DNA of 64,000 nucleotides from a virus: IMG/VR virus record IMGVR_UViG_3300032265_001317, positions 1 through 64,000 of that record; one strand, written 5' to 3'. The notes beneath the pieces were generated by a model. The model was not told where the DNA came from, ran no database searches, and worked only from the letters and a program-made list of their open reading frames with translations. This document shows, in pieces, positions 1-38,322 of this stretch (positions are counted from its first letter, which is position 1; every line of letters begins with the position of its first letter). The position numbers and the translations under genes were made by a program.

Positions 1-3000
1 GAAGTAATACTACCTTGGATGGTAGCATTAATAATACCAGCAACGTTAACGTTACCTCCAATATATACATCTTTAGCAATACCAACTCCGCCTGCTACTT
101 GTAATGCTCCATTGGTAGTAGCTGTAGAGTTTGTTGTAGTAGTAATAACCGTAGTTCCACTTACTGTTAACCCAGATAATGTAGTTTGTCCTGATACACC
201 TAATGTTCCACTAACTGTTAACTGAGTAACAGTTGTAATTGTTGCTGTTAAACCGGATAATGTAGTTTGTCCTGATACCCCTAATGTTCCATTAATTGTT
301 TCATTACCAACAACTGTTAACTGAGTAACAGTTGTAATTGTTGCTGTTAAACCTGATAATGTAGTTTGTCCTGATACACCTAATGTTCCACTACTTGTAA
401 TGTTGTTAATACCAACAAAGTTTGTAGCTGTCACAGTACCATTTATATATGCACCACCCACTATGTTAAAAATTGCACCAGAATATTGTGTAGTAGTATT
501 GATGTATACTGTACCAGTAGTGTCAATACGCATACGTTCGCTGGTATTTTGTGTAGAGAATGTAATTGGACTCGATGCATCGCCCGAAGCAAATCCTAAT
601 TGTCCACTCTGTAAGAATAATGCTCTAGGGCCATCGCCGCCGTTGATACGGAATCCACCCAAATAACTATAACCGCTAACGTATAATGCCCAAGGTTGAG
701 CACCACTCCAAGATGTATTTTGTTGAATACGTACTAGGGATCCAGACCCGTTGTTGGTACCACCATCGCCTGCTGTGGCACCAGTGACATATATATTTCC
801 ACCAATGCCTAGGCCGCCAACTATTTGTAGAGCTCCTGTAGTTGTTGAAGTAGATGCTGATGTATTTGTAATTGATACTGCAATATTGGTAGTGGCACCT
901 CTACCAGTTATAGTTTGTAATGTGCTGGTATTCCAGATAGTAATTGCACCGGTAGCTGTGCTGATTGCGGTATCAGTACCTGCAATAATATTAACTGTGC
1001 CAGTAGTGCCGTTTAAAGAAGTTACACCAAACGAACCAATGTTGGCAGATGTTAGAACCTGACTACCATTGATGTTCATGTTATTGGCACTGACTGTTCC
1101 ACCTACCCATAAGTCTCTACCAATACCAACTCCGCCAACCACAATCAATGCACCGGTTGTTGTTGATGTTGCATTGGTGTTGGTAAACATTGTTGTACCT
1201 GTACTACCAACTGAAATTTGTCTTAGTCCGGTACCGGCATTATAGTCGCCGCCTGCAAAGAAGTTAATGGTTGCAGTATTGAATGTGGCAAAATCTAAAC
1301 CAACAGCATTGTCGCCGCCACGAGCAATCCAGCTAGGATTATATCCAGTCGGTGCTCCTGCAAATCTAGAATAGTTAACATTGGCATTATTACCAGTGAC
1401 ATATAGTCCCGGAGCACCGCCTGGGTTAAATTGTATTTGTTGACTAACAGCGGTACTTGGTTGACCAATATAAATTACACCTTGATTCTTTGTAGTAATG
1501 CTTATACCAATGTTAGGATCGCCGCCGGCTGATGCTATACTAGGCGCAGATCCACTAGGTGTTCCAGTGACCTGAACATAGTTTATAGAACCCGATCCCA
1601 GTGTAGCAGAACCACCTACATATAAATTGCCTTGAATTCCTGCGCCACCGCCAACTACTAGTGAACCGGTAAGTGTTGAAGATGCGGCTACGTTGGCCGC
1701 AATGGTTACAACACCAAGGTTAGTAATTCTGATACCTGTTGCAGTTGATGACCAAGGAGCAATGTTTAAAGCACTGGCACTACCTTGAGATGCGCCACGG
1801 AAGTAAATTAAGCTGTCGCCTACTACTGTACTTGGATTATAAGAACCAGAACCTGCATATGAAATAAAATTCATACTGGTACTGCCGTTGACAACGGTTA
1901 AATCAGAACTAACACTTGGAGTATTTGCAGGGTTAACTGCAACCAGTTGGCTTGCATAAACTGAACCACCTGCAGAAATACCACCAGTTACTTGTAAAGC
2001 ACCGGTACTGGTTGATGTGGCATTAGTGGTAGTGCTGATATGTAGTTGGCCGCCGTTATCAAACCAACTACGATAACTTAATGAACCAGAATAAAAATTA
2101 ATGTTGCCGCTTGGGCCACCATAAACGTTAACATCGTTCCAAAATGACGATCCAGAAACACCTAAAGTAAAGTTATTGCTAGCGTCTTTGGACAACACGT
2201 TTCTTATATAGTTGCCATCTGAAGAAATTACACTCCAGTTGTTCATTGGCATGGCCAATATAATATTACTGATAGTGTTGTTTACAGATGTTGCTGTAAA
2301 TGTCTGTAGAGTAGCATTGAGTGTAATGTTACTGCCGTTACCAGTACTGGTATTATATGCAATAGTTCCTAATACAGTATTGCCGCCAACGTTTAAATTT
2401 TTTCCAATACCAACTCCGCCTGTGACAACCACTGCACCTGTGCTGGATGAAAAGCTATTGGCTGTGCTGGTTACTAGCAACTGAGTCTGAATTGTTGATG
2501 TACCAGAAATAGTTTCTGTTACAGCTGACACAGATGTGGCATTAAATGTAGTAGCAGTTGTTCCTTGCAAGAAACTTCCGCCTGTTACCACTAGGTTGGT
2601 AGCTGTTAATGTTGATACTACCGCGCCGCCATTTAAGAATGTTTGACCGGTGACTGTGAACTGTGCTCCAACTGTGGCACCGTTGACTACCGTCAATTGA
2701 GTAAGTGTTGATAATTGTGCTGTCAGTTGAGACAATACTGTTGGACCAACTACAGTTAATACTGTAGTCGTGAAACTGGTAGCAGTGATACCGCCTGGGA
2801 TACTGGCACTGCCTGTTACGTTTAGGTTGTTTACTGTTAGTAACCCATTAACAACACCGTTGCCAACAATGGTAGAATTGCTAGCTGTAAAATTTGTAGC
2901 AGTTAAATTCTGTAATACTGCACTTCCGCCAACGTATAAGTTTCCACCAATGCCCACGCCACCTGATACTTGTAACGCACCGGTGGCAGTCGAAGTTGCT

Positions 3001-5396
3001 TGTGTTGCATTAGAAACAGTAATAGCATTGGTAGTTGTTGCGCCGCGACCTGTAATGGTCTGTAGTGTTGATGTGTTCCAAACTACTACCACACCAGTGG
3101 TGGTTGATACTGCGGTATCTGTTCCGGCGTTAAGTGTACTAACACCATAATTGCCCAGTGTCGCGGCCGTAATCGCTGCCGATCCATTAACAGTTAAATT
3201 TTGTGCTATAGTTGCACTGCCTGTAACTACTAAATCGCTATTAATTGTGGTCAATGTACCGGCAGGGTCTAGTGTTAAGTTACCTGTCAAACTACCAAAA
3301 GTATTTCCTGACAATACCAGATTACCAACTTCGATGTTACCCGGAGTAATAGAAGTAACATTGGTACCATTGGTTACATAGATACTGCTAATGTTGTTTA
3401 GGTTAAGATTACCTGCACCAAAACTGACATTACCTGTGCGTTGATTGACCAAGAAAGCGTTACCTACACGGAAGTCTCCGTTTTGGTCAACTGTTTGATA
3501 ATGTATCACACCACCGTTGGTCTGTATCACTTCATTGGCCTGTGTGACCAAACTACTATCGTCTGATAGATCTTTACCTGCTCCAATAAAACTTAGATTG
3601 AATGCAATTAATTTTAAATCTGTACCAGTGCCGCTAGCGATAACACCTTGATTTCCAAAGCAAGCGGCAGATCCGATACAGCGTAGCTCAGCACCAAACT
3701 GATGATAGTCTGCCAGGATAATACGTGTGGCTGTGGCCGCACTTGTTCCTGTACTGGAAATATTTTGGGTAGCAACAGGATCATCCACTATGCTGGTACT
3801 GTTATTAACACCATCAAAGTGTAACATAAGCACAGTTGCGGCATCAGATGTTAATGCGGCAGTAGGTGCTGTAAAGTTTCCTGTAGATCTTGCCACATTA
3901 CTTAGACGGAAATCATCTATGTAACCTTTCCACGGACTTGCATTGTCACTGATATTGAAAGGGTCTGTATTGTTTACATTTGCGGTAGCAGTTGTACTAG
4001 CATCAAGTGTGCCGTTGATATAAACATTAAGTGTTGTGCCAACGTGTACTACTCGAGCATGATACCAGGTACCAGTACTTAGTATTGTGGTGCCGGTCGT
4101 GATAGCAGTACCGTGAGTGGCTACCAATCTACCGTTGTTCAAATAACTGGTAAAGTTTGTAGCAGTGGTTTGACCTTTTCGATAAAAATATTGTTGTGTT
4201 GAAGTAGTTGTGGTCCTGATCCAACCTTCCGCAGTATAATTGCCTGTACCAAATTGAAAATCATTGTCACTAATTGTTTCAACATAGTCGCCTACATTGG
4301 TAGTCAATAAACTAGAACCACCAAACTTGCTCTGTGCAGTTGATAAAGCGGCGCCGCCTACTACATATGGTAGTTTTGCAGTACGATCAAATACTGTTTC
4401 AAATCCCCAAGAAGGGCCGTTGATATAAACATAGCCGCCAGTACTGCTAGAAATAACTCCAGTGGCTAAAGTAGTACCTGTGGTACTCTTGTAGGTGATA
4501 GTATCACCTTTGGTAAATGTTCCAGAGATACCTGACAATCTTAATTTGACTGTTCCTGTGCTACCAAGTCCTAGCGTTCCCGCCTGTGCATAAATTGCCT
4601 TGTCTGCAAAATACACAAACCCGTTTAATAATTCTGCTCGTGCGCCGTTGGTCATATAGAAACCAGTAGCATTTGGAACAATAAATGTTGCTTCGTTCCA
4701 TAGCATAGCTGGTTCTAAACTGGTAGGGTCTAGTACGCTGGCGTCAAGATAAGCACCGTTACCAGCGTCGCCGGCATCAAATCCATACGGATCTGCGGTG
4801 CTGGTTATACTTCCGCGGGTGATTACAGAGAATCGTTCAACATACGGACTTTTAGTTGTGATTTTTGCACCTGGTGCAAATTTAAAGGCGCTACCCGGTT
4901 TAAAAAATCCGCCAACTGTAAAATCACTAATGGTTGTTTCGCCATTTAGATAAAACGCATCATTATATTTGGTAGCGGTTGTTGGGTTTACTGATACTTC
5001 TCTTAGCCCTGCGCCACGAATTGACACACCTTGCGGTACAGTCATTGGGAATATTTCTGTGTAAGTGCCTGGCTGTATAAAAACAGTATCGCCACTTTGT
5101 GCAACACTCAAGGCTTTTACAATGGTCTTAAAAGCACTGGCTATTCTACGTCCATCAGATGTGTCGTTACCTGCGGCAACGCTGACATACCATGTTTTGG
5201 TATCATAATTGAGTAAGTTGACTCCGCCTATGACAGCAGTACCACCTGCATATATTGATCCACGTAGACCAATACCGCCGGCAACTACCAGGGCGCCTGT
5301 AGTAGAAGATACAGATGTTACTGTACTTTGTACAGTCGCGGTTGAAACGACCACAAGGCCATTTTTGACTTTAAAATCATTACTGAGTGTTGCCAT
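1..5396 (-). CDS. Large tail fibre/appendage protein, truncated at the left window edge (>1790 aa); N-terminal beta-helix-like region with an inserted LamG/concanavalin-A-like domain
   Basis: Absent from the ORF track, consistent with no stop in the window. ATG at 5396 follows GGAAAGGGAA and an ATAAATA box. Reads MATLSNDFKVKNGLVVSTATVQS...TKTWYVSVAAGNDTSDG...; LamG-like segment (~3830-4340) AQSKFGGSSL...EGWIR...WYHARVV...YINGTLD...GYIDDFRLS; many TGALxVxGGxG repeats; same frame still open at base 3. Confidence 0.85.
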   Translation of the reverse strand, partial: MATLSNDFKVKNGLVVVSTATVQSTVTSVSSTTGALVVAGGIGLRGSIYAGGTAVIGGVNLLNYDTKTWYVSVAAGNDTSDGRRIASAFKTIVKALSVAQSGDTVFIQPGTYTEIFPMTVPQGVSIRGAGLREVSVNPTTATKYNDAFYLNGETTISDFTVGGFFKPGSAFKFAPGAKITTKSPYVERFSVITRGSITSTADPYGFDAGDAGNGAYLDASVLDPTSLEPAMLWNEATFIVPNATGFYMTNGARAELLNGFVYFADKAIYAQAGTLGLGSTGTVKLRLSGISGTFTKGDTITYKSTTGTTLATGVISSSTGGYVYINGPSWGFETVFDRTAKLPYVVGGAALSTAQSKFGGSSLLTTNVGDYVETISDNDFQFGTGNYTAEGWIRTTTTSTQQYFYRKGQTTATNFTSYLNNGRLVATHGTAITTGTTILSTGTWYHARVVHVGTTLNVYINGTLDASTTATANVNNTDPFNISDNASPWKGYIDDFRLSNVARSTGNFTAPTAALTSDAATVLMLHFDGVNNSTSIVDDPVATQNISSTGTSAATATRIILADYHQFGAELRCIGSAACFGNQGVIASGTGTDLKLIAFNLSFIGAGKDLSDDSSLVTQANEVIQTNGGVIHYQTVDQNGDFRVGNAFLVNQRTGNVSFGAGNLNLNNISSIYVTNGTNVTSITPGNIEVGNLVLSGNTFGSLTGNLTLDPAGTLTTINSDLVVTGSATIAQNLTVNGSAAITAATLGNYGVSTLNAGTDTAVSTTTGVVVVWNTSTLQTITGRGATTTNAITVSNATQATSTATGALQVSGGVGIGGNLYVGGSAVLQNLTATNFTASNSTIVGNGVVNGLLTVNNLNVTGSASIPGGITATSFTTTVLTVVGPTVLSQLTAQLSTLTQLTVVNGATVGAQFTVTGQTFLNGGAVVSTLTATNLVVTGGSFLQGTTATTFNATSVSAVTETISGTSTIQTQLLVTSTANSFSSSTGAVVVTGGVGIGKNLNVGGNTVLGTIAYNTSTGNGSNITLNATLQTFTATSVNNTISNIILAMPMNNWSVISSDGNYIRNVLSKDASNNFTLGVSGSSFWNDVNVYGGPSGNINFYSGSLSYRSWFDNGGQLHISTTTNATSTSTGALQVTGGISAGGSVYASQLVAVNPANTPSVSSDLTVVNGSTSMNFISYAGSGSYNPSTVVGDSLIYFRGASQGSASALNIAPWSSTATGIRITNLGVVTIAANVAASSTLTGSLVVGGGAGIQGNLYVGGSATLGSGSINYVQVTGTPSGSAPSIASAGGDPNIGISITTKNQGVIYIGQPSTAVSQQIQFNPGGAPGLYVTGNNANVNYSRFAGAPTGYNPSWIARGGDNAVGLDFATFNTATINFFAGGDYNAGTGLRQISVGSTGTTMFTNTNATSTTTGALIVVGGVGIGRDLWVGGTVSANNMNINGSQVLTSANIGSFGVTSLNGTTGTVNIIAGTDTAISTATGAITIWNTSTLQTITGRGATTNIAVSITNTSASTSTTTGALQIVGGLGIGGNIYVTGATAGDGGTNNGSGSLVRIQQNTSWSGAQPWALYVSGYSYLGGFRINGGDGPRALFLQSGQLGFASGDASSPITFSTQNTSERMRIDTTGTVYINTTTQYSGAIFNIVGGAYINGTVTATNFVGINNITSSGTLGVSGQTTLSGLTATITTVTQLTVVGNETINGTLGVSGQTTLSGLTATITTVTQLTVSGTLGVSGQTTLSGLTVSGTTVITTTTNSTATTNGALQVAGGVGIAKDVYIGGNVNVAGIINATIQGSIT
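175..393 (-). repeat. Near-identical intragenic tandem repeat, 3 copies (81- and 99-nt periods), encoding GTLGVSGQTTLSGLT(ATITTVTQLTV)
   Basis: gataatgtagtttgtcctgatac(a/c)cctaatgttcca begins at 175, 256 and 355. Confidence 0.9.
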
Positions 5397-22521: not shown

Positions 22522-23235
22522 TTAGTTGGTACTGCTTAATTTTATATATGTACCTGTCGTAGAACCCAATGTCCATGGAGCCATTTTACCTGCACTATAG
22601 ATAGCAGTACTTGTGCTGAATCTGTTCATGACACGTGCCTTACGTGCAGTTAGTTTGGTAACAAAATAAGATGCGCCTGTCCAGTCAGTTGCAATAATCT
22701 GCATAGTACCGGCTGTCAACGTAGCTGTTGTTAATTTAACTGTGCCAACGCCTTGTGTGTTACGCACAGTGTAACGACGGCTTCCACGTTGTTCAATAAT
22801 ATCGCCACCAGCTACAGCAGAACTGCCGGTAGTAAGATAGGAAGTAAATTGAATTGCGTTTTGTCTGTTGCTGGATGTGGTTGCAACAAAAGTTGCCGCT
22901 GTACCTGCAGAAGCAGGTGTAAATGTCAATGTCAAACTGGCTGTGGTGTTATAACCGCTACCAGGTTGAGTAACTGTCAAAGTTTGTATACGACCTGTAC
23001 CGCTGTCATATCGAACTTGTGCTGTACCTGTGGATACAATACCACCTGCGATATCTGGTGCGCTTGCTACCCATGTTGTGTTAGTAGTTGTGCTGTATCC
23101 ACTGTTAGTTGCTGTGTTAACAATAACAATGGAAGTGATACCTTCGGCACCGACACCTGTGTTACCACCACGGGGAAAGTTTTGACCCGGGCTAATTGTA
23201 CCACCAAAGAATTTCTTTTTAATTGGACGTCCCAT
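22522..23235 (-). CDS. Virion structural protein following the major capsid gene (237 aa; possible head decoration)
   Basis: AAGGAG RBS; MGRPIKKKFFG start; has its own late box and terminator. Confidence 0.75.
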   Translation of the reverse strand: MGRPIKKKFFGGTISPGQNFPRGGNTGVGAEGITSIVIVNTATNSGYSTTTNTTWVASAPDIAGGIVSTGTAQVRYDSGTGRIQTLTVTQPGSGYNTTASLTLTFTPASAGTAATFVATTSSNRQNAIQFTSYLTTGSSAVAGGDIIEQRGSRRYTVRNTQGVGTVKLTTATLTAGTMQIIATDWTGASYFVTKLTARKARVMNRFSTSTAIYSAGKMAPWTLGSTTGTYIKLSSTN

Positions 23236-23257
23236 TTTATTTTCTCCTTAAGAAATA

Positions 23258-23329
23258 ACGGCGTTCTAGGCCGTACGCGGTTGAGTTCCGCATAAAATTC
23301 ACCCCATGTGAATTATACCTTATATTTAG
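23258..23329 (-). promoter_or_regulatory. Late promoter (CTAAATA, 23323-23329) followed by a three-hairpin 5' leader
   Basis: AAUUCAC-AUGGG-GUGAAUU; UAUGCGG-AACUCAA-CCGCGUA; ACGGC-CUAGAAC-GCCGU; then the RBS. Confidence 0.6.
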
Positions 23330-23341
23330 CACCCGAACAAC

Positions 23342-33012: not shown

Positions 33013-34133
33013 ATTTCAATACCCAAGAATCTACTTTGGTATCCGACACGACTTTCACTTAACCCACCTTGGTGTAATTTTAAGTTAGGTTTTCCATCTG
33101 TACCAGTTGCCTGTGTTTGATCTGCTGGTTCGGCTTGCGATTGTGCTGGTTGTTCCTGTTCTGGGTGAATAGTATTAAAGTACCCTAATACTTTTTTAGC
33201 GTCATCAGATGAAAATGCCGCAACTACTTGATGTAAATCTAGCATAGACATCAATGCACCACGTGCCATTTGATAATCTTGTTTCATGTGTGTCGGTATT
33301 GCCGCTACTTTTCCGGCGGCTGTTGCTAATGCACCCGGAGTGGCTTTAGCTATATCTGCGGCTTTGCTAGCACCTGTCTTTATACCTTGTACTGCTTGCG
33401 TACCTAGCTTACCGGCAATACGACCAGCTTTGGTCATTGTACCTGTATTAGGATTTTTAGAAAGATTGGTTGCTCTAGTTGGATCGTTGTACCCAAACTT
33501 GGCACCTTTTACAAAGTTACCAATACCTTTTTTAGCATTGCTGGCCATACCTTTGAGATCAAATTCGTCAAGTTCTAGACTTTCTCCCATGGCCACTCGT
33601 TTCTGCAACATTGTTCTAACTCGTTCAACATCGTCGCCTTTTAGGTGTTGTAACGATGTTAATAAACTTTTATCGCTTAGTGGATTCGCTACTTCAGCTG
33701 ATTTTGGTGCAGATACATCACCAGCATTGCCCATAGCGTTTGAACCCGATACAGCAGTGGAAGCACCTGTGTTATTATTTACAGCTGGAGTACCTGATAC
33801 CGCCGGAGATGATCCTGTGTTATTTGGCACAGCAGTATTACCAGTTGCCGCTGTGTTATTTGAATTATTATATGATTGTGACGAACTTCCGCCATCAAGC
33901 TGATCAGCTTGTGCTCTAAGTTTTTGTGCTTTGGCTTGATTAATAGCCTGTTTGCTGTCACCACTTACTGCACTTCTACCTGCGGTATATCCTTTACCAA
34001 ATGCATCACCAGCGCCACGGATTCCACCTACTACAGCACCAGCACCTTTGGCTAGTCCTCCAGCAATAGAACCTATAGCACTTCCAATACCTTCTTCAGT
34101 ATTGCTTTCTAAAATAATATCATTGATACGCAT
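33009..34133 (-). CDS. Hypothetical low-complexity late protein, probable head-internal protein (374 aa)
   Basis: Late box at 34162-34168 and AAGGA RBS; MRINDIILES start; A/G/K-rich. Confidence 0.7.
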   Translation of the reverse strand: MRINDIILESNTEEGIGSAIGSIAGGLAKGAGAVVGGIRGAGDAFGKGYTAGRSAVSGDSKQAINQAKAQKLRAQADQLDGGSSSQSYNNSNNTAATGNTAVPNNTGSSPAVSGTPAVNNNTGASTAVSGSNAMGNAGDVSAPKSAEVANPLSDKSLLTSLQHLKGDDVERVRTMLQKRVAMGESLELDEFDLKGMASNAKKGIGNFVKGAKFGYNDPTRATNLSKNPNTGTMTKAGRIAGKLGTQAVQGIKTGASKAADIAKATPGALATAAGKVAAIPTHMKQDYQMARGALMSMLDLHQVVAAFSSDDAKKVLGYFNTIHPEQEQPAQSQAEPADQTQATGTDGKPNLKLHQGGLSESRVGYQSRFLGIEI

Positions 34134-34161
34134 AAAAGGAATTCCTTGTCTTATTAAATTT

Positions 34162-34168
34162 TATTTAT
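34162..34168 (-). promoter_or_regulatory. Late promoter box (ATAAATA)
   Basis: Upstream of the RBS of the 374-aa gene. Confidence 0.6.
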
Positions 34169-34174
34169 GTTATG

Positions 34175-34611
34175 AAATGAGCTAACGCTCATTTGCTATA
34201 TCGCTTACGCTCATAGCATTTTATCTTCTTTAGAAGATTTAAGTATTATCCAGATTCCTTGGTCACACTTCGCCCTGCACCGGGCGAAAAAATGACATTA
34301 TCCGAGTTCGAATAGTTCACACAGCGTTAGAGCATTACAGAGGCGGTCATCCGGTACCTCGAGCTCAGTCTTCATTGACGGCAGTTCATGTATATACGCT
34401 ATCATACACATAAACCCAGGGTTTTTCTCCCTTCTTTTGGCCTTTTATTACATTTTCAAACAATCAAACCGCGGCAATTTTGCGATCCTCGTCCTGTAAA
34501 GGATAGTGATTGAGTACTCTTAACGGCGAGAGATTTCCGTCCCTGCGATCCGAGATCCAGGTTTAGAGCGCATGAAGTTGGCCTGCGCAAGCTGTTACCG
34601 TCTAGTGAGCC
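34175..34611 (-). ncRNA. Putative large structured non-coding RNA downstream of the GIY-YIG gene (family not recognised)
   Basis: Largest non-coding gap in the window; more than 10 helices including nested long-range pairs and a 14-bp stem with G-U wobbles only on the minus strand. Confidence 0.6.
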
Positions 34612-35039
34612 TAAGTTTTTTTGATTATGTGTGAGCCATGTACACGGACTTGTATGTGTCCATTGTAGTATTCGTCGGATTCTAATACCTTGCGGTCGAA
34701 TTGTTCTCGGGCCTCAATGTAAGATGTTTCTGATTTGCTAGTACAATAATATAATATTTCGCGGGTAAATTTATCTATGCCTAGTTGTGTGATGTCTGCT
34801 GTTAAGTTAGGACTGGACCCGTAATATTCCTGCCAGTCACTGTCGATTTTGCTTCGAATTTTCTTTTTCTTCTTGGTGCCGTTCTTTAACTTTACAGTCT
34901 TGTAGGTCGTTTTACTAAACTTTGCTAATTTTTTGCCAATATATTTCCGCCCCGTAACTGTGTTAGTAATAAGATAAACAAAACCAACACATGTTTCAGG
35001 TAACTCTGTAACTATAGCACCTTGATACAGCCAAGTCAA
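34611..35039 (-). CDS. Minimal GIY-YIG family endonuclease (142 aa) with a Lys-rich insertion
   Basis: GFVYLITN...KYIGKK, YYGSS, FTREIL, candidate catalytic E in SYIE, YYN; TTG start abutting the upstream stop. Confidence 0.8.
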   Translation of the reverse strand: MTWLYQGAIVTELPETCVGFVYLITNTVTGRKYIGKKLAKFSKTTYKTVKLKNGTKKKKKIRSKIDSDWQEYYGSSPNLTADITQLGIDKFTREILYYCTSKSETSYIEAREQFDRKVLESDEYYNGHIQVRVHGSHIIKKT

Positions 35040-35237
35040 TTACTTTGCTGCCTTGGCTTCCTTGCGGGCATTCTTTTCAGCTGTGATTTCGTTGCGACGA
35101 GCTTTGACTAGTTTGCCTAGTTCTGCTAATGCCTTGCGACTGCGTGTGCCAGCGGCACTGTTACCACCGGTAAACTTAGCATCTTCTGCTAGGAATTCTG
35201 CAAAAGCGGCTTGTAGTTGTGTATTGGTATCATTCAT
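35040..35237 (-). CDS. Hc1 (histone H1-like) family small DNA-binding protein
   Basis: GNSAAGTRSRKAL.EL.KL matches the Hc1-type GNKAAGTRARK motif. Confidence 0.7.
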   Translation of the reverse strand: MNDTNTQLQAAFAEFLAEDAKFTGGNSAAGTRSRKALAELGKLVKARRNEITAEKNARKEAKAAK

Positions 35238-35538
35238 GTTTATTCTCTTTTTTATTATGAACCCTGGGCGGTGAGTTTAATTTTCGAAGTGCAACAGTTT
35301 CTTTTTTTAAACGTCTGGCTTCGGCCCTTCCTTTTTTCTCAATTAGAAATAAATCCCAAACTAATGAGAGCATCTCTTTCTCTGTCTTTCTAAGTTCTCT
35401 CAACATCCTTCTAAGATCTTGAGCTCCTAGTTCTGTAGTTTTTTTTAAGAAATCTTGATTCCTGTTATGATAGTTGGCAATGGTGGTAACCATGCTGTTG
35501 TATAATTCTTTATATCTTTCAAGTTCAGGATTCGACAT
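35230..35538 (-). CDS. Hypothetical basic helical protein (102 aa)
   Basis: Overlaps both neighbours in the operon; K/R-rich. Confidence 0.65.
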   Translation of the reverse strand: MSNPELERYKELYNSMVTTIANYHNRNQDFLKKTTELGAQDLRRMLRELRKTEKEMLSLVWDLFLIEKKGRAEARRLKKETVALRKLNSPPRVHNKKENKHE

Positions 35539-37309
35539 AATCTACATCATTACTATAGCTGGTAAACCCGTTTTCTTTTATTACTCTTAATACATTGTTT
35601 ACTCTACCTACCAATTCGTCTTTGTGACTAATCAAGTATATATTCTTATTCCTCTCCCTGGCCATCTTTTTTAGGACCGCTAGGGCACTTTCAACACCGG
35701 CACTATCCATTCCAGCATCTACAAGTTCGTCGATAAACAATAGATTAATACTTTGGTAAAGTCCTTCCCATACATCTCGGAAAGCAAAACTCAAACTTAG
35801 AATCAATCTGTTACGTTCACCGCGTGATAAATTATCAAAATCTAAATCTTGTCCTAATTGTGTAATCTCTACTGTTAAATCATTTTGGAAAACTACACGA
35901 TGTGGTAAACCGAGTTTATCGATATAGTATCCGAGACGTTTATTCAAGTAGGTAAGATTCTGATCGATAATTTTCTTGCGTATAAAACTGTCTTTGTTAG
36001 TCAGTAATTTATATAAGAATTCTTGATGATCTCTTAATTTTGAAAGCTCGTTGATCAGGTCCCAAGTTATTTCTTGTATAGCTGTTTTCTTTAATTCTTC
36101 GATTTGTTCTTCGAACGGATTGGACTTATTAATTTCGTTTGTAAGTTGCTTTTCCAAACTATCTACATTATTTTTATGTCCCAGTGCTTCTGCTTCTGTA
36201 TCGTAAAAGGTTGCAGGTCTCTTTGGTAATTCACCTATTTCTGCGATACTTTGATTAATACCTGCTAGGTCGCTGGTTACTTTATCAAAGTATGTGACAG
36301 CATCAACAAGACTTTTTTCAGCCATAGCACTCATTTCTTCGTGCTTGTGATCGTGTAAAGATTGTTCACATGCTGGACAAGTTTTATCTTCTAGCTTTTC
36401 TAATTCTTTGGTATACTTGTTTACAGTTTTATCGGCTTGGCTTAATGCGGCTTCTAGTGTTGCTTTTTGCTTGCCTAGATTTTTTATTGCTGTATTATTA
36501 TCTTCCCATTGCTTTAGAGACTGGTGAGATTCTAACTCTGCTGTAATATCGACTCCTTCAAGTTTCATTATAGCACGACCGAGATTTTCTATATCTTGAT
36601 CTTTTTTACTTTCCCAAGCACTACTTTTAATGGTTAGACTATCAATACTTTTCTGTACATTCTCGTTAGCAGTTTTAACACTTTCAATTCTAAATTGTTC
36701 TTTTTGTATAGAGTCTTTGGTTTCTTTAACAAGTGCTTTAAGATTTTCTGCTTTTTCACTAAGCATGGTAATACCTAGCAACTGCTCGATGATTTCGCGT
36801 TGTTCGGCCGCCTTCATTGACAGAAACGGCTCTGTATAGGTGTTTAACGCAACCAAGTGTTTAAACATGGTATGTGACATTTCTAGCATTTGCTCAATGG
36901 CTTTCTGCGTTTCTCTGCTGTCACCTTGACTATCATCTTCCTCTTTAGCGTCTTTTAACTGCTCATCGTTAACAAATAATCTAAGTATATTGGGCTTACG
37001 ACCACGTTCAATTCTGTATAGAATTCCGCCTTTTTCAAACTCTACTGTTACCAACATGGCCTTGCCGTTGGTTTTATTAATAAGGTTTTCCTTGCGGATA
37101 TTGGTTAATGCTTGCCCGTATAGTGCATAGCTTAACGCATTGATAATTGTGGTTTTACCTGTGCCATTACGAGACCCTGTGTCATCTCCTCCTAGATCTA
37201 GGTTAGCACCTAGCACAAGTGTTAGGTGCTCTTTATCAAAGTCTACTGCTTGGGTTTGATTACCTACACTTAGAAAGTTTTTTACTGTTATATTTTTTAA
37301 TTTAAACAT
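35525..37309 (-). CDS. gp46: Recombination ATPase, gp46/SbcC/Rad50-like
   Basis: Walker A NGTGKTT, coiled coil with CPAC zinc hook, LSRGE signature, FIDE Walker B, ISH. Confidence 0.95.
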   Translation of the reverse strand: MFKLKNITVKNFLSVGNQTQAVDFDKEHLTLVLGANLDLGGDDTGSRNGTGKTTIINALSYALYGQALTNIRKENLINKTNGKAMLVTVEFEKGGILYRIERGRKPNILRLFVNDEQLKDAKEEDDSQGDSRETQKAIEQMLEMSHTMFKHLVALNTYTEPFLSMKAAEQREIIEQLLGITMLSEKAENLKALVKETKDSIQKEQFRIESVKTANENVQKSIDSLTIKSSAWESKKDQDIENLGRAIMKLEGVDITAELESHQSLKQWEDNNTAIKNLGKQKATLEAALSQADKTVNKYTKELEKLEDKTCPACEQSLHDHKHEEMSAMAEKSLVDAVTYFDKVTSDLAGINQSIAEIGELPKRPATFYDTEAEALGHKNNVDSLEKQLTNEINKSNPFEEQIEELKKTAIQEITWDLINELSKLRDHQEFLYKLLTNKDSFIRKKIIDQNLTYLNKRLGYYIDKLGLPHRVVFQNDLTVEITQLGQDLDFDNLSRGERNRLILSLSFAFRDVWEGLYQSINLLFIDELVDAGMDSAGVESALAVLKKMARERNKNIYLISHKDELVGRVNNVLRVIKENGFTSYSNDVDYVES

Positions 37310-38322
37310 TAGATATTTCTATAAATTTCAAGTAGCATTGCTTTGTCAAACTGTTCCGACTCAATATTAACCAATTGTTCTGAAACAATTTGATCAACAC
37401 TTTCGAACTGCTGATCTGGATTATCGTCTACTGTGCCTTCAAGGTTAGTTTTATCTTGTATAAGACTGATCTCTCTGATGTCGTATTCGTTGACGAATGT
37501 TTCTTTGATAAAATTTGCCTCTTCATAACTGATGTCAATGTCAAGATGCACTTTTAAATGCATCTTGCTTTTCATGATTGAGTCTTTTTTGTCAATAAGG
37601 TCGCTAAGTTTAACAGTACGATACTTGGGAGCATCTGGCCAGTTAATAAATTCCGGCTCACCTCCCCATTCTAATGTCATCATACCTCTATCATCATCCC
37701 ATGCATCAGAGAAGTTGTGAGGAAACGCATTTCCTATATAGATTACCTTTTGATTGGATTGGCGTTTGTGAAAGTGCCCGCTGAACACATAGTCAGGAAC
37801 CGTAAAGTCCTCAGCATGCAATTCTCCATGATCTGGCATCTGCACCATTGCGTTCATAAAGAATTTAGGCAATTCAAAATGCCCAAACACATACTTGCTT
37901 TTGATCCCACTCATGACCTTCCATTCATCACCTACTAACCAAGGTACAAGGGTAACATCACCCCGGGTCATAATACTGTCTACAACAGTGACGCCTGGAA
38001 CGTGCCTACCAAAAGTACTCGAGTGAATGTCACGCTTGTCTTTATAAAATAAATCGTGGTTACCAGGAAACCAATAAAAGTTTTCAAATGCCGCGCCCAG
38101 TTTTTCAAGGCATCGCAAGCTGGAATCTAATGTTATAAGATTTAGACTGTTACGGTTGTGGCTCCAGTCACCTAAAAATATACCAGTTTCGCAACCTGCG
38201 GCCTTGGCTTCGGCAATGTACCAATCTACAAATTCTTCGCAGTCTTTAAGATGTGCAGTTGAGTTGCCTTTTAGGCCAAAATGTATATCAGTAAAACATG
38301 CTACCTTTTTAAACAAGGTCAT
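37309..38322 (-). CDS. gp47: Recombination nuclease, gp47/SbcD/Mre11-like
   Basis: Metallophosphoesterase motifs DIH, GD, GNHD, GHFH. Confidence 0.95.
   Translation of the reverse strand: MTLFKKVACFTDIHFGLKGNSTAHLKDCEEFVDWYIAEAKAAGCETGIFLGDWSHNRNSLNLITLDSSLRCLEKLGAAFENFYWFPGNHDLFYKDKRDIHSSTFGRHVPGVTVVDSIMTRGDVTLVPWLVGDEWKVMSGIKSKYVFGHFELPKFFMNAMVQMPDHGELHAEDFTVPDYVFSGHFHKRQSNQKVIYIGNAFPHNFSDAWDDDRGMMTLEWGGEPEFINWPDAPKYRTVKLSDLIDKKDSIMKSKMHLKVHLDIDISYEEANFIKETFVNEYDIREISLIQDKTNLEGTVDDNPDQQFESVDQIVSEQLVNIESEQFDKAMLLEIYRNI

What the first reader, a model, noticed from the sequence alone, without database searches (positions are those of the whole stretch)
34175..35039. Minimal GIY-YIG nuclease followed directly by a ~440-nt highly structured non-coding element: candidate new nuclease-RNA system
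Seen: the only long non-coding gap in a gene-dense window starts at the TAG of a 142-aa GIY-YIG protein. Read on the minus strand it folds hierarchically. Outer helix GGCUCA (34611-34606) pairs with UGAGCU (~34368-34363). Nested inside, GACGGUA (34602-34596) pairs with UGCCGUC (34383-34377), enclosing a ~210-nt multibranch domain: hairpins 34568-34588 and 34542-34561, a CAAUCA/UGAUUG arm holding UCCU-UUAC-AGGA and GAUCGC/GCGGUU, AGGG/CCCU, and a 14-bp stem at 34383-34416. That stem has four G-U pairs that would be A-C mismatches on the plus strand, which points to a minus-strand RNA rather than a DNA palindrome. Further 3' are GAGG..CGG-AUGA-CCG-CCUC, a possible pseudoknot (ACAGC/GCUGU), and hairpin 34262-34296 flanked by two GGAUAAU copies. 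Established: mobile GIY-YIG homing nucleases normally carry an extra DNA-binding domain, and nuclease-plus-structured-RNA pairs exist (HEARO/OMEGA). This protein is catalytic domain only, with a Lys-rich loop. Inference: the RNA may be a scaffold or guide for the nuclease, or an independent large phage ncRNA; I do not recognise the family.
Basis: partly seen in the sequence, partly recalled or inferred. Interest (0 to 1): 0.9.

Follow-up and report, generated by a model that had tools for sequence, protein, structure and literature searches.

The report
Extended Polynucleobacter-1 twin-box phage RNA
The 436-base gap behind a small nuclease gene of this uncultured giant T4-like lake phage encodes a real, multiply knotted non-coding RNA whose first third is the catalogued but unexplained Polynucleobacter-1 motif; the rest is uncatalogued and carries one short word twice, and nothing shows that it guides the nuclease.

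Summary
The element is real. Window 34175-34610 (minus strand) is a conserved non-coding RNA of about 435 nt. Covariation supports 94 base pairs, four of the helices crossing others (89% paired; covariation score 0.44, against 0.09 or less for slid controls). Its 5' third (34458-34593) is a full-length match to Rfam RF01718, Polynucleobacter-1 (121 bits, cut-off 37). The 2010 paper already placed the motif downstream of PSSM2_218-like genes, and I show that PSSM2_218 is a homologue of this GIY-YIG. The 3' two-thirds are uncatalogued. They hold a knotted GGUA...ACCGCC core and two "twin boxes" whose 3+7 letters match each other in 108 of 109 RNAs, through at least 43 parallel changes. The nuclease has intact catalytic motifs and is a fixed syntenic neighbour. 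However, the RNA also follows a PD-(D/E)XK nuclease, stands behind its own promoter, or sits on Polynucleobacter islands without any GIY-YIG. About 490 cultured phages have the nuclease but show no similar RNA by blastn. The words match no second site in three complete phage genomes and do not covary with the nuclease gene. This scan found the same RNA before on other genomes.

The parts
34175..34610 (-). Whole non-coding RNA, about 435 nt, running from just after the GIY-YIG stop codon to the terminator hairpin.
   Evidence: Conserved end to end in homologues (nhmmer). 94 pairs are 89.4% paired, with 0 of 500 shuffles as good.
34458..34593 (-). 5' domain, equal to Rfam RF01718 Polynucleobacter-1. 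Contains P1 34568-34588, P2 34543-34560, P3 34516-34534 and the P4 arm 34461-34512 with inner hairpins 34490-34506 and 34467-34487.
   Evidence: cmscan 121.2 bits against gathering score 37, model positions 1-141 of 141. Covariation in every helix.
34523..34601 (-). Pseudoknot PK1: 34598-34601 pairs with 34523-34526, which lies in the loop of P3. A 2-bp contact 34591-34592 with 34581-34582 lies in the loop of P1.
   Evidence: Pair 34601-34523 shows AU 38, GC 35, UA 18. Helix 1 is 90.5% paired and all 4 pairs change on both sides.
34418..34431 (-). Small hairpin GGG/CCU(C) in the A-rich linker.
   Evidence: 85% paired, 2 of 3 pairs with double changes.
34383..34416 (-). 14-bp stem with G-U pairs. 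Its loop 34397-34402 forms pseudoknot PK2.
   Evidence: 12 of 14 pairs change on both sides. G-U and U-G pairs are frequent on this strand only.
34321..34326 (-). 3' strand of pseudoknot PK2, pairing with 34397-34402.
   Evidence: 96.7% paired and all 6 pairs change on both sides. Pair 34398-34325 shows CG 83, UA 26.
34330..34379 (-). Knotted core. GAGC/GCUC is 34363-34366 with 34330-34333. GAGG/CCUC is 34357-34360 with 34340-34343. The crossing helix GUCA/UGAC is 34376-34379 with 34346-34349. Near-invariant GGUACCGG..ACCGCC.
   Evidence: helices 15-18, 93-100% paired. This core is kept in type-B RNAs and, with an insertion, in the bacterial copies.
34297..34320 (-). Module A: box 1 GUGA (34317-34320), a spacer, then twin box A GAA-CUC-GGAUAAU (34297-34309).
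   Evidence: Identity covariation with module B at a 52-nt offset, ID 0.99 at four word positions. 108 of 109 words are identical.
34269..34288 (-). Central G+C-rich hairpin between the twin boxes.
   Evidence: helix 19, 89.5% paired.
34245..34266 (-). Module B: box 1 GUGA (34263-34266), a spacer, then twin box B GAA-UCU-GGAUAAU (34245-34257).
   Evidence: at least 43 parallel changes.
34195..34217 (-). Hairpin capped by a GUAA (GNRA) tetraloop.
   Evidence: helices 21-23. The alignment is gappy here, so support is moderate.
34176..34193 (-). Terminal stem-loop AAAUGAGC/GCUCAUUU followed by U-rich sequence. Likely intrinsic terminator and the RNA 3' end.
   Evidence: Strong covariation on the 109-sequence alignment (34191-34178, 34188-34181, 34193-34176). 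The simple scan did not call it a terminator.
34162..34169 (-). CATAAATA, resembling the T4 late promoter TATAAATA, ahead of the next gene (ATG at 34133).
   Evidence: Read from the sequence. ATAAATA-like words recur at this place in the alignment. The promoter assignment rests on my own knowledge of T4.
34611..35039 (-). 142-aa GIY-YIG nuclease. It is a catalytic domain only, with a basic beta-hairpin insert at residues 40-66.
   Evidence: Pfam PF19835 SegE_GIY-YIG, E 2e-32. The VY..YIG motif and the conserved Arg, Glu and Asn residues are invariant. The model has pLDDT 88.7. The best fold match is the I-TevI catalytic domain 1LN0, prob 0.99.
35040..38322 (-). Upstream genes of the same strand block: gp47-like Mre11 (37309-38322), gp46-like Rad50 (35525-37309), a 102-aa ORF (35230-35538) and a 65-aa Hc1-like ORF (35040-35237).
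   Evidence: Pfam hits. This order is conserved in related contigs.

Best explanation
This is an autonomous, large, tertiary-structured non-coding RNA of giant T4-like freshwater phages. It combines the Polynucleobacter-1 motif as an exchangeable 5' domain with an uncatalogued, more widely kept 3' 'twin-box' domain.

In this window it is most likely made as the untranslated tail of the gp47-gp46-orf102-Hc1-GIY-YIG transcript and ended by its own terminator hairpin. I saw no promoter or terminator between the nuclease gene and the RNA. This transcription model is inferred, not shown.

The GIY-YIG looks like an active catalytic-domain-only nuclease. In this phage lineage it is a fixed syntenic neighbour rather than a demonstrable partner.

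The mechanism I think most likely, all inferred: the knotted core folds into a rigid scaffold that displays two copies of one short purine-rich word (box A with CUC, box B with UCU) on either side of a hairpin. One two-fold partner, or two copies of one partner, would read both boxes. Because the neighbours are consistently DNA-transaction genes (Mre11/Rad50, Hc1-like protein, nucleases, RNase H, a small tyrosine recombinase), the RNA probably acts in phage DNA replication or recombination rather than as a guide for this nuclease.
For: Real RNA:
- 94 pairs are 89.4% paired against 75.0% in shuffles. The covariation score is 0.438, against 0.185 in shuffles and 0.09 or less in slid controls. 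71 pairs show double-sided changes.
- G-U pairs fit only the minus strand.
- The small ORFs in the gap are not conserved.

Known 5' domain: RF01718 at 121 bits.

Modularity:
- 13 loci keep the 3' domain with a different 5' domain and no RF01718 hit.
- Polynucleobacter chromosomes carry RF01718 plus twin boxes.

Autonomy:
- In L263 and L225 a TATAAT-type promoter lies directly upstream of the RNA and no nuclease gene abuts it.
- In L240 and L279 a PDDEXK_15 nuclease replaces the GIY-YIG.
- In about a dozen loci an unrelated ORF of 88-331 aa lies between the GIY-YIG and the RNA.
- The bacterial copies have no GIY-YIG.

Neighbour, not sporadic invader: 64 of 75 gp46-anchored relatives have both GIY-YIG and RNA, and nearly all the rest are cut by contig ends.

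Twin boxes:
- 11 word variants, identical in both boxes in 108 of 109 RNAs.
- At least 43 parallel changes on a tree built without these columns.
- The same layout occurs in type-B and bacterial RNAs.
Against: - No expression data could be obtained.
- No partner for the twin boxes was found, so the 'two-fold reader' is a deduction from identity covariation alone.
- The adjacency to the GIY-YIG is very tight. 85 of 97 RNA hits have it within 1.5 kb upstream, 7 more are cut by contig ends and only 5 are exceptions. The nuclease is more conserved (70-86% aa identity) than gp46 (48-82%). A functional coupling therefore remains possible.
- The DNA-metabolism theme of the neighbours could be mere synteny.
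Confidence: 0.6

Rival explanations
1. Nuclease-RNA system. The RNA would be a scaffold, regulator or guide for the catalytic-domain-only enzyme encoded next to it, and the twin words would be programmable specifiers.
For: - 85 of 90 RNA loci that could be judged have the GIY-YIG upstream on the same strand, mostly less than 50 nt away.
- The protein lacks any DNA-binding domain.
- Where the GIY-YIG is missing, another small nuclease (PDDEXK_15) sits at the same spot in L240 and L279.
- Bacterial copies lie 0.8-1.8 kb upstream of a 188-aa catalytic-domain-only tyrosine recombinase.
- The twin words vary freely, as guides do.
Against: - In L263 and L225 the RNA has its own promoter and no adjoining nuclease; in L247 an unknown ORF precedes it.
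- Unrelated ORFs are inserted between the GIY-YIG and the RNA in about a dozen loci.
- 493 cultured-phage records carry GIY-YIG homologues in other contexts. No similar RNA is found by blastn in that collection, and Rfam finds none in Melnitz or P-HM2.
- No position of the GIY-YIG gene tracks the word: the highest mutual information is 0.30 bit, against word entropies of 0.4-1.0 bit.
- The 13-letter boxes and their wobble complements have no second exact site in three complete 345-355 kb phage genomes. The 14-letter boxes have none in three Polynucleobacter chromosomes.
Confidence: 0.15
2. RNA-primed replication origin or template-switch element. The transcript would stay on, or return to, the DNA and prime synthesis. 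The twin boxes flanking a stable hairpin would be donor and acceptor sites for a strand transfer, which would keep them identical mechanically.
For: - The locus sits among replication and recombination genes.
- An RNase HI gene lies just upstream in L225.
- An A+U-rich variable stretch follows box B.
- Identity is strict in phages (108 of 109) but relaxed in chromosomal bacterial copies (7 of 12). This would fit maintenance by a replication-linked process.
- From my own knowledge, identical direct repeats are used for primer translocation in hepadnaviruses (DR1/DR2) and for strand transfer in retroviruses (R).
Against: - There is no GC-skew inflection at the locus in the window or in three complete genomes. 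This is a weak test for T4-like phages.
- The constant CUC versus UCU difference inside the boxes argues against plain copying.
- Dense tertiary covariation across four crossing helices is more than known primer RNAs show.
- Nothing here measures replication.
Confidence: 0.12
3. Cis-acting untranslated region. This would be either a 3' UTR that controls stability or translation of the upstream operon, or a leader for the downstream gene.
For: The RNA starts 10 nt after the stop codon, with no promoter between. It was typed 'cis-regulatory? y' in the 2010 table.
Against: - The downstream gene differs between loci. In this window it has its own late-promoter-like box, and a terminator hairpin precedes it.
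- The upstream gene can be replaced, or the RNA can have its own promoter.
- Its size and four crossing helices exceed known bacterial UTR elements.
Confidence: 0.07
4. Decoy or antitoxin-like RNA, comparable to type III toxin-antitoxin systems or an anti-defence sponge. Its two identical boxes would bind or be cut by a host or phage protein.
For: Repeats that evolve in concert are typical of ToxI-like antitoxin RNAs (my own knowledge). The RNA occurs in phages and on bacterial islands.
Against: - There are only two short boxes inside a large unique fold, not tandem whole-unit repeats.
- The gene order is the reverse of ToxIN.
- No endoribonuclease-like toxin gene is a constant neighbour.
Confidence: 0.04

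Closest known systems
Polynucleobacter-1 RNA motif (Rfam RF01718; Weinberg et al. 2010, Genome Biol 11:R31, PMC2864571)
   Same: Window 34458-34593 matches the full model at 121 bits. The published note that most examples lie downstream of GOS11034/PSSM2_218-like genes fits. PSSM2_218 is 35% identical to this GIY-YIG, E 8e-20. The raw 2010 alignment already shows conserved sequence running 3' of the motif.
   Different: The catalogued family is 141 positions, has unknown function and was 'not detected in any sequenced purified phage'. Here the RNA is about 435 nt. It has an uncatalogued 3' domain with two more crossing helices (PK2, PK3) and the twin boxes. That 3' domain also occurs with a different 5' domain that RF01718 does not match.
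OMEGA / HEARO RNAs (IsrB, TnpB omega-RNA), reviewed in PMC13565253
   Same: A small nuclease gene is followed by a large structured RNA on the same strand.
   Different: Those nucleases have a RuvC fold, and their RNA carries a guide matching a target beside the element. Here the nuclease is GIY-YIG, no guide-target pair exists in three complete genomes, and the RNA and nuclease occur apart.
IS110-family bridge RNA (two programmable loops; my own knowledge, not read here)
   Same: One structured RNA presents two short variable segments next to a compact DNA enzyme. Bacterial copies lie near a small recombinase.
   Different: Bridge-RNA loops differ from each other (target versus donor) and match known DNA sites. 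Here the two words are identical and match nothing else. The enzymes are of other families.
Large ornate RNAs GOLLD and ROOL (PMC5737381; cryo-EM in PMC12286853)
   Same: Large, heavily covarying RNAs of unknown function that are often phage- or prophage-borne and found first in lake or metagenome data.
   Different: No sequence or Rfam relation. This RNA is smaller, at about 435 nt. Oligomerisation is untested. Twin boxes are not reported for those RNAs.
T4 Seg-type free-standing GIY-YIG homing endonucleases, and the I-TevI catalytic domain (PDB 1LN0)
   Same: Pfam SegE_GIY-YIG at E 2e-32, with conserved catalytic residues and a matching fold.
   Different: There is no DNA-binding C-terminal domain. 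There is no presence/absence polymorphism among close relatives. The protein is more conserved than gp46.

Membership tests
Rfam RF01718 Polynucleobacter-1 | Covariance-model score at or above the curated gathering score (37 bits), over the whole model | tested here: met
   121.2 bits, model positions 1-141 of 141, E 8e-26
Rfam RF01718 Polynucleobacter-1 | The family's helices are kept by compensatory changes | tested here: met
   Helices 3-11 are 82-100% paired, most with double-sided changes
Rfam RF01718 Polynucleobacter-1 | Lies downstream of a GOS11034 / PSSM2_218-like gene (2010 supplementary text) | tested here: met
   PSSM2_218 against the window GIY-YIG: 35% identity, E 8e-20
Free-standing GIY-YIG homing endonuclease (Seg type) | GIY-YIG catalytic motif with the conserved Arg, Glu and Asn residues | tested here: met
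   Invariant Y22, Y33-G35, R93, E109/E112 and N126 in 25 sequences. PF19835 at E 2e-32
Free-standing GIY-YIG homing endonuclease (Seg type) | Separate DNA-binding domain that sets target specificity | tested here: not met
   142 aa. The Pfam domain covers residues 3-129. The model shows one domain plus a beta-hairpin insert
Free-standing GIY-YIG homing endonuclease (Seg type) | Sporadic presence among closely related genomes | tested here: not met
   64 of 75 gp46-anchored relatives have the gene and the RNA. The others are almost all cut by contig ends
RNA-guided nuclease system (OMEGA/HEARO-like) | A variable RNA segment complementary or identical to a DNA target outside the RNA gene | tested here: not met
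   No second exact site for the 13-letter boxes, or for their full-length wobble complements, in genomes of 345-355 kb. One-mismatch hits to the boxes, and in G153 a few hits to the degenerate wobble-complement pattern, are scattered singletons. None in three Polynucleobacter chromosomes. Host genomes of the phages could not be searched
RNA-guided nuclease system (OMEGA/HEARO-like) | RNA and nuclease are an obligate pair | tested here: not met
   RNA without the GIY-YIG in L225, L240, L247, L263, L279 and 12 bacterial loci. GIY-YIG homologues in 493 cultured-phage records, with no blastn match to the RNA in that collection
RNA-guided nuclease system (OMEGA/HEARO-like) | Physical binding of RNA and protein | not testable with these tools
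Group I intron carrying a GIY-YIG gene | Match to the group I intron model and a split host gene | tested here: not met
   No Intron_gpI hit even at E up to 1. The flanking ORFs are complete and unrelated to each other
tRNA / tmRNA | Detected by ARAGORN | tested here: not met
   0 genes in the window

The most novel reading that the evidence does not exclude
The twin boxes could be a programmable 'double specifier'. The RNA would hold two copies of one short nucleic-acid sequence (for example two identical DNA sites on sister or concatemeric phage genomes, or a host sequence). It would hand them to whichever catalytic-domain-only DNA enzyme is encoded alongside: the GIY-YIG, the PD-(D/E)XK nuclease, or the small tyrosine recombinase on the bacterial islands. 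That would be a new, fold-independent kind of RNA-directed DNA transaction. A still stranger variant is that the two purine-rich boxes pair with each other base-for-identical-base in parallel orientation. That is the only direct pairing scheme I can think of that itself demands identity.
Probability: 0.07. Interest if true: 0.95.

Novelty: new variant of a known kind. Interest (0 to 1): 0.58.

Why it matters
Polynucleobacter-1 has sat in Rfam since 2010 as an orphan 141-nt motif of unknown function, reported as undetected in any sequenced purified phage. This locus and its relatives show three things:
- The motif is only the exchangeable front end of a roughly 435-nt knotted RNA.
- That RNA is a fixed feature of a large clade of giant (about 350 kb) T4-like freshwater phages.
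- It also rides on Polynucleobacter genomic islands.

The twin boxes are the unusual part. Two short words changed at least 43 times, always together and always staying identical rather than complementary. This kind of constraint has no standard explanation in RNA biology. It points to a specific, testable interaction: a two-fold reader, a strand-transfer step, or an unusual pairing. If the RNA proved to direct the small DNA enzymes beside it, that would be a new class of RNA-directed system. If not, it is still one of the few large ornate RNAs tied to lytic phages.

Tried and rejected
- PDB by sequence: no hit for the nuclease.
- Spacer A with spacer B helix: mean duplex energy -1.71 against -1.32 +/- 0.14 kcal/mol in permutations. 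This is marginal and absent in many clades.
- Cis partner for the words: no column pairs with them other than invariant U's.
- Trans partner: the reverse-complement 7-mer is not enriched in the flanks (81 against 60). Nothing was found in the 92-kb record.
- A 12-letter match to box B at 90268-90279 of the window's own 92-kb record (beyond the 64-kb window), inside the gp43-like gene, is not reproduced in a genome with the same word.
- A wobble-complement hit at 23341 is the tail of a terminator.
- Mini-ORF reading of the boxes (start-like GUG/AUG, stop-like UAA/UGA): the frames and spacer lengths do not fit (read).
- tRNA-anticodon mimicry, kink-turn or C/D-box reading, and CsrA GGA sites were considered from the sequences. 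I dropped them because the required letters are not invariant.
- Replication origin by GC skew: no inflection at the locus.
- Pairs with 97% or more identical GIY-YIG but different words: only six close pairs were available, one of them discordant, which is too few to use.
- Inserted ORFs between the GIY-YIG and the RNA: no Pfam family.
- Island att sites equal to the word in Polynucleobacter: none seen within +/-8 kb.
Full report
**What is at the coordinates.** The window is a fragment of a T4-like phage. It carries gp47/gp46-like Mre11/Rad50 genes and a T4 baseplate protein. It belongs to a 92-kb viral record that CheckV estimates at 26% complete, which suggests a genome of about 350 kb.

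On the minus strand the gene order is gp47, gp46, a 102-aa ORF, a 65-aa Hc1-like ORF, and then a 142-aa ORF at 34611-35039. This last ORF matches Pfam SegE_GIY-YIG over its whole length (E 2e-32). A 477-nt ORF-free stretch follows at 34134-34610, and then a 374-aa ORF with no Pfam family.

The claim that this is the only long gap is not. Stretches 1063-2211 and 3382-5208 contain only ORFs under 66 aa.

**Is it an RNA, and is it known?** Rfam cmscan gives a full-length match of 34458-34593 (minus strand) to RF01718, Polynucleobacter-1, at 121.2 bits against a gathering score of 37. This family comes from Weinberg et al. 2010 (PMC2864571).

[quoted passage not shown] I fetched PSSM2_218, which GenBank calls "NAD synthetase". 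It is 35% identical to the window's GIY-YIG (E 8e-20). So the nuclease-RNA adjacency was already on record in 2010, although the gene was not recognised as a nuclease. The raw 2010 alignment also shows conserved sequence continuing 3' of the motif.

**Extent and conservation.**
- The nuclease has more than 589 relatives in IMG/VR.
- In 82 of 98 distinct loci the sequence just downstream matches the window's gap by nhmmer, usually end to end.
- Most of the apparent exceptions have the RNA further downstream, behind an inserted ORF of 88-331 aa with no Pfam family.
- A scan with a pattern from the 3' part of the RNA, independent of the protein, gave 97 RNA hits. Of these, 85 have the GIY-YIG within 1.5 kb upstream (mostly under 50 nt), 7 are cut by contig ends and 5 are true exceptions.
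- Anchoring on gp46 instead, 64 of 75 close relatives carry both the nuclease and the RNA, and nearly all the others are truncated.

The pair is thus a fixed feature of the clade, not a sporadically inserted homing endonuclease. The nuclease (70-86% aa identity) is even more conserved than gp46 (48-82%).

**Structure.** I aligned 51 sequences (A1) and 109 non-redundant sequences. Mutual information, RNAalifold and explicit pair counts agree on 94 pairs in 24 helices.
- 89.4% of cells are paired, against 75.0% in shuffles (0 of 500 shuffles as good).
- The covariation score is 0.438, against 0.09 or less when partners are slid by 1-3 columns.
- 71 pairs show changes on both sides.

Covariation instead shows:
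- PK1, 34598-34601 with 34523-34526;
- a 2-bp contact, 34591-34592 with 34581-34582;
- PK2, the loop 34397-34402 with 34321-34326;
- PK3, 34376-34379 with 34346-34349, crossing the GAGC/GCUC and GAGG/CCUC helices.

The RNA ends in a covarying stem-loop (34176-34193) followed by U's. A CATAAATA box ahead of the next gene resembles the T4 late promoter; that resemblance is from my own knowledge. The small ORFs in the gap are open in only 14 and 7 of 109 homologues.

**Modularity.** Thirteen loci keep the 3' half (roughly 34164-34384) behind a different, conserved 5' domain of about 190 nt. Rfam does not recognise that domain.

RF01718 also occurs in 18 of 151 Polynucleobacter genomes, at chromosomal positions. 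There the RNA lies on islands with this layout: a divergent DUF6641 gene, the RNA, a variable ORF, and a 188-aa tyrosine recombinase that is little more than a catalytic domain. No GIY-YIG is present.

**The twin boxes.** Two modules flank the central hairpin. Each has a GUGA box, a spacer, a 3-letter prefix, a fixed triplet (CUC in module A, UCU in module B) and a 7-letter word.
- In the window these read GAA-CUC-GGAUAAU (34297-34309) and GAA-UCU-GGAUAAU (34245-34257).
- Across 109 RNAs there are 11 word variants, and 108 RNAs have the same word in both boxes.
- On a tree built without these columns, each box changed at least 43 times, in parallel.
- The layout recurs in type-B RNAs, including one with GUUAGA in both boxes.
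- It recurs in the bacterial copies as GAACUC/GAAUCU plus an 8-letter word, but there only 7 of 12 pairs are identical.

This is identity covariation, not complementarity. I found no partner anywhere I could look:
- none in cis;
- none in the nuclease gene or the 120 nt upstream of it (highest mutual information 0.30 bit);
- none in the 92-kb record;
- none in three complete genomes of 345-355 kb, which I fetched whole, either as exact 13-mers or as full-length wobble complements, apart from a few scattered singleton hits (one-mismatch box matches, and in G153 matches to the degenerate wobble pattern);
- none in three Polynucleobacter chromosomes.

Pairing of the two spacers is marginal.

**The nuclease.** The GIY-YIG motif (here VY..YIG) and the conserved Arg, Glu and Asn residues are invariant. 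An AlphaFold model (pLDDT 88.7) shows a single domain with a basic beta-hairpin insert at residues 40-66. Its best structural match is the I-TevI catalytic domain.

Homologues at 52% identity or less occur in 493 cultured-phage records, mostly T4-like cyanophages but also Melnitz, phiM12 and ACP17. They sit in other gene contexts. The RNA has no blastn match in that collection, and Rfam finds none in Melnitz or P-HM2.

**Does the RNA depend on the nuclease?** The exceptions are informative.
- In L240 and L279 a PDDEXK_15 nuclease sits where the GIY-YIG should be.
- In L225 a PD-(D/E)XK-like gene and an RNase HI gene are followed by tandem repeats, a TATAAT box and then the RNA.
- In L263 the RNA follows an amidoligase-like ORF and has its own TAGACA-17-TATAAT promoter.
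- In L247 an unknown ORF precedes it.

Together with the bacterial islands, this shows that the RNA is the autonomous unit. The recurrence of small DNA enzymes beside it is suggestive but could be synteny.

**Mechanism.** What is shown: a conserved, knotted RNA with a modular 5' domain, a constant 3' domain, two words under selection or a process that keeps them identical, and neighbours that are mostly DNA-transaction genes.

What is inferred: co-transcription with the upstream operon, termination at 34176, and a scaffold that presents the two boxes to a two-fold reader acting in replication or recombination.

GC skew shows no inflection at the locus in the window or in three complete genomes, which is a weak test.

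**Limits.** No expression data could be had. Host genomes are unknown. The tree is a FastTree on recombining phage sequences, so 43 is an estimate.

Earlier notes of this scan describe the same RNA on other genomes with the same verdict. I reached my reading before reading them and re-tested their main claims here.

Noticed in passing
window 23233-23313 (-): Rfam RF02980 freshwater-2 RNA (77.6 bits). It lies in the 5' UTR of the ORF that starts at 23235, just after a terminator hairpin and a TATAAT promoter. The same motif lies 11-16 kb from the twin-box RNA in the three related genomes where I located both, and is also present in two more.
   Followed up: partly
window 1063-2211 and 3382-5208: Two ORF-poor stretches of 1.1 and 1.8 kb, with only ORFs under 66 aa. 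Neither has an Rfam hit even at E 0.1. They could hold many tiny early genes or further non-coding elements.
   Followed up: partly
window 213-398: A 99-nt unit repeated 1.9 times in tandem at 95% identity.
   Followed up: no
window 35011-35039 (-): Near-consensus sigma-70-like promoter (TTGACT, 17 nt, TG-n-TATAGT) that overlaps the TTG start and the conserved N-terminus of the GIY-YIG ORF. It is probably coding sequence that happens to look like a promoter.
   Followed up: no
L022, L026, L033, L039, L041, L057, L066, L070, L075, L079, L201, L204, L208 (first ~190 nt after the GIY-YIG stop): A second, conserved 5' domain ('type B') replaces the Polynucleobacter-1 domain in front of the same twin-box 3' domain. 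Rfam has no match to it.
   Followed up: partly
L405-L416 (Polynucleobacter chromosomes): The RNA sits on a recurrent island. The layout is a DUF6641 gene (opposite strand), the RNA, a variable ORF, a 188-aa catalytic-domain-only tyrosine recombinase, and a conserved 250-290-aa ORF with a YYWWW motif. Some genomes hold two copies.
   Followed up: partly
L217:8262-8647: A natural deletion variant of the RNA that lacks the 3' strand of PK2, module A and the central hairpin. Only box B is left. It could also be an assembly artefact.
   Followed up: no
L225 (upstream of the RNA): At least four tandem copies of CAGTTACCCTAAAG and a TATAAT box lie between an RNase HI gene and the RNA.
   Followed up: no
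L477:26712-27149 and rows: GenBank and RefSeq label many homologues of this GIY-YIG nuclease 'NAD synthetase' (for example PSSM2_218). This looks like a propagated misannotation.
   Followed up: partly
G000:C1:90268-90279 (+), outside the window: A 12-letter exact match to twin box B (ATCTGGATAATA) inside the gp43-like DNA polymerase gene. It is not reproduced in a related genome with the same word, so it is probably chance.
   Followed up: yes
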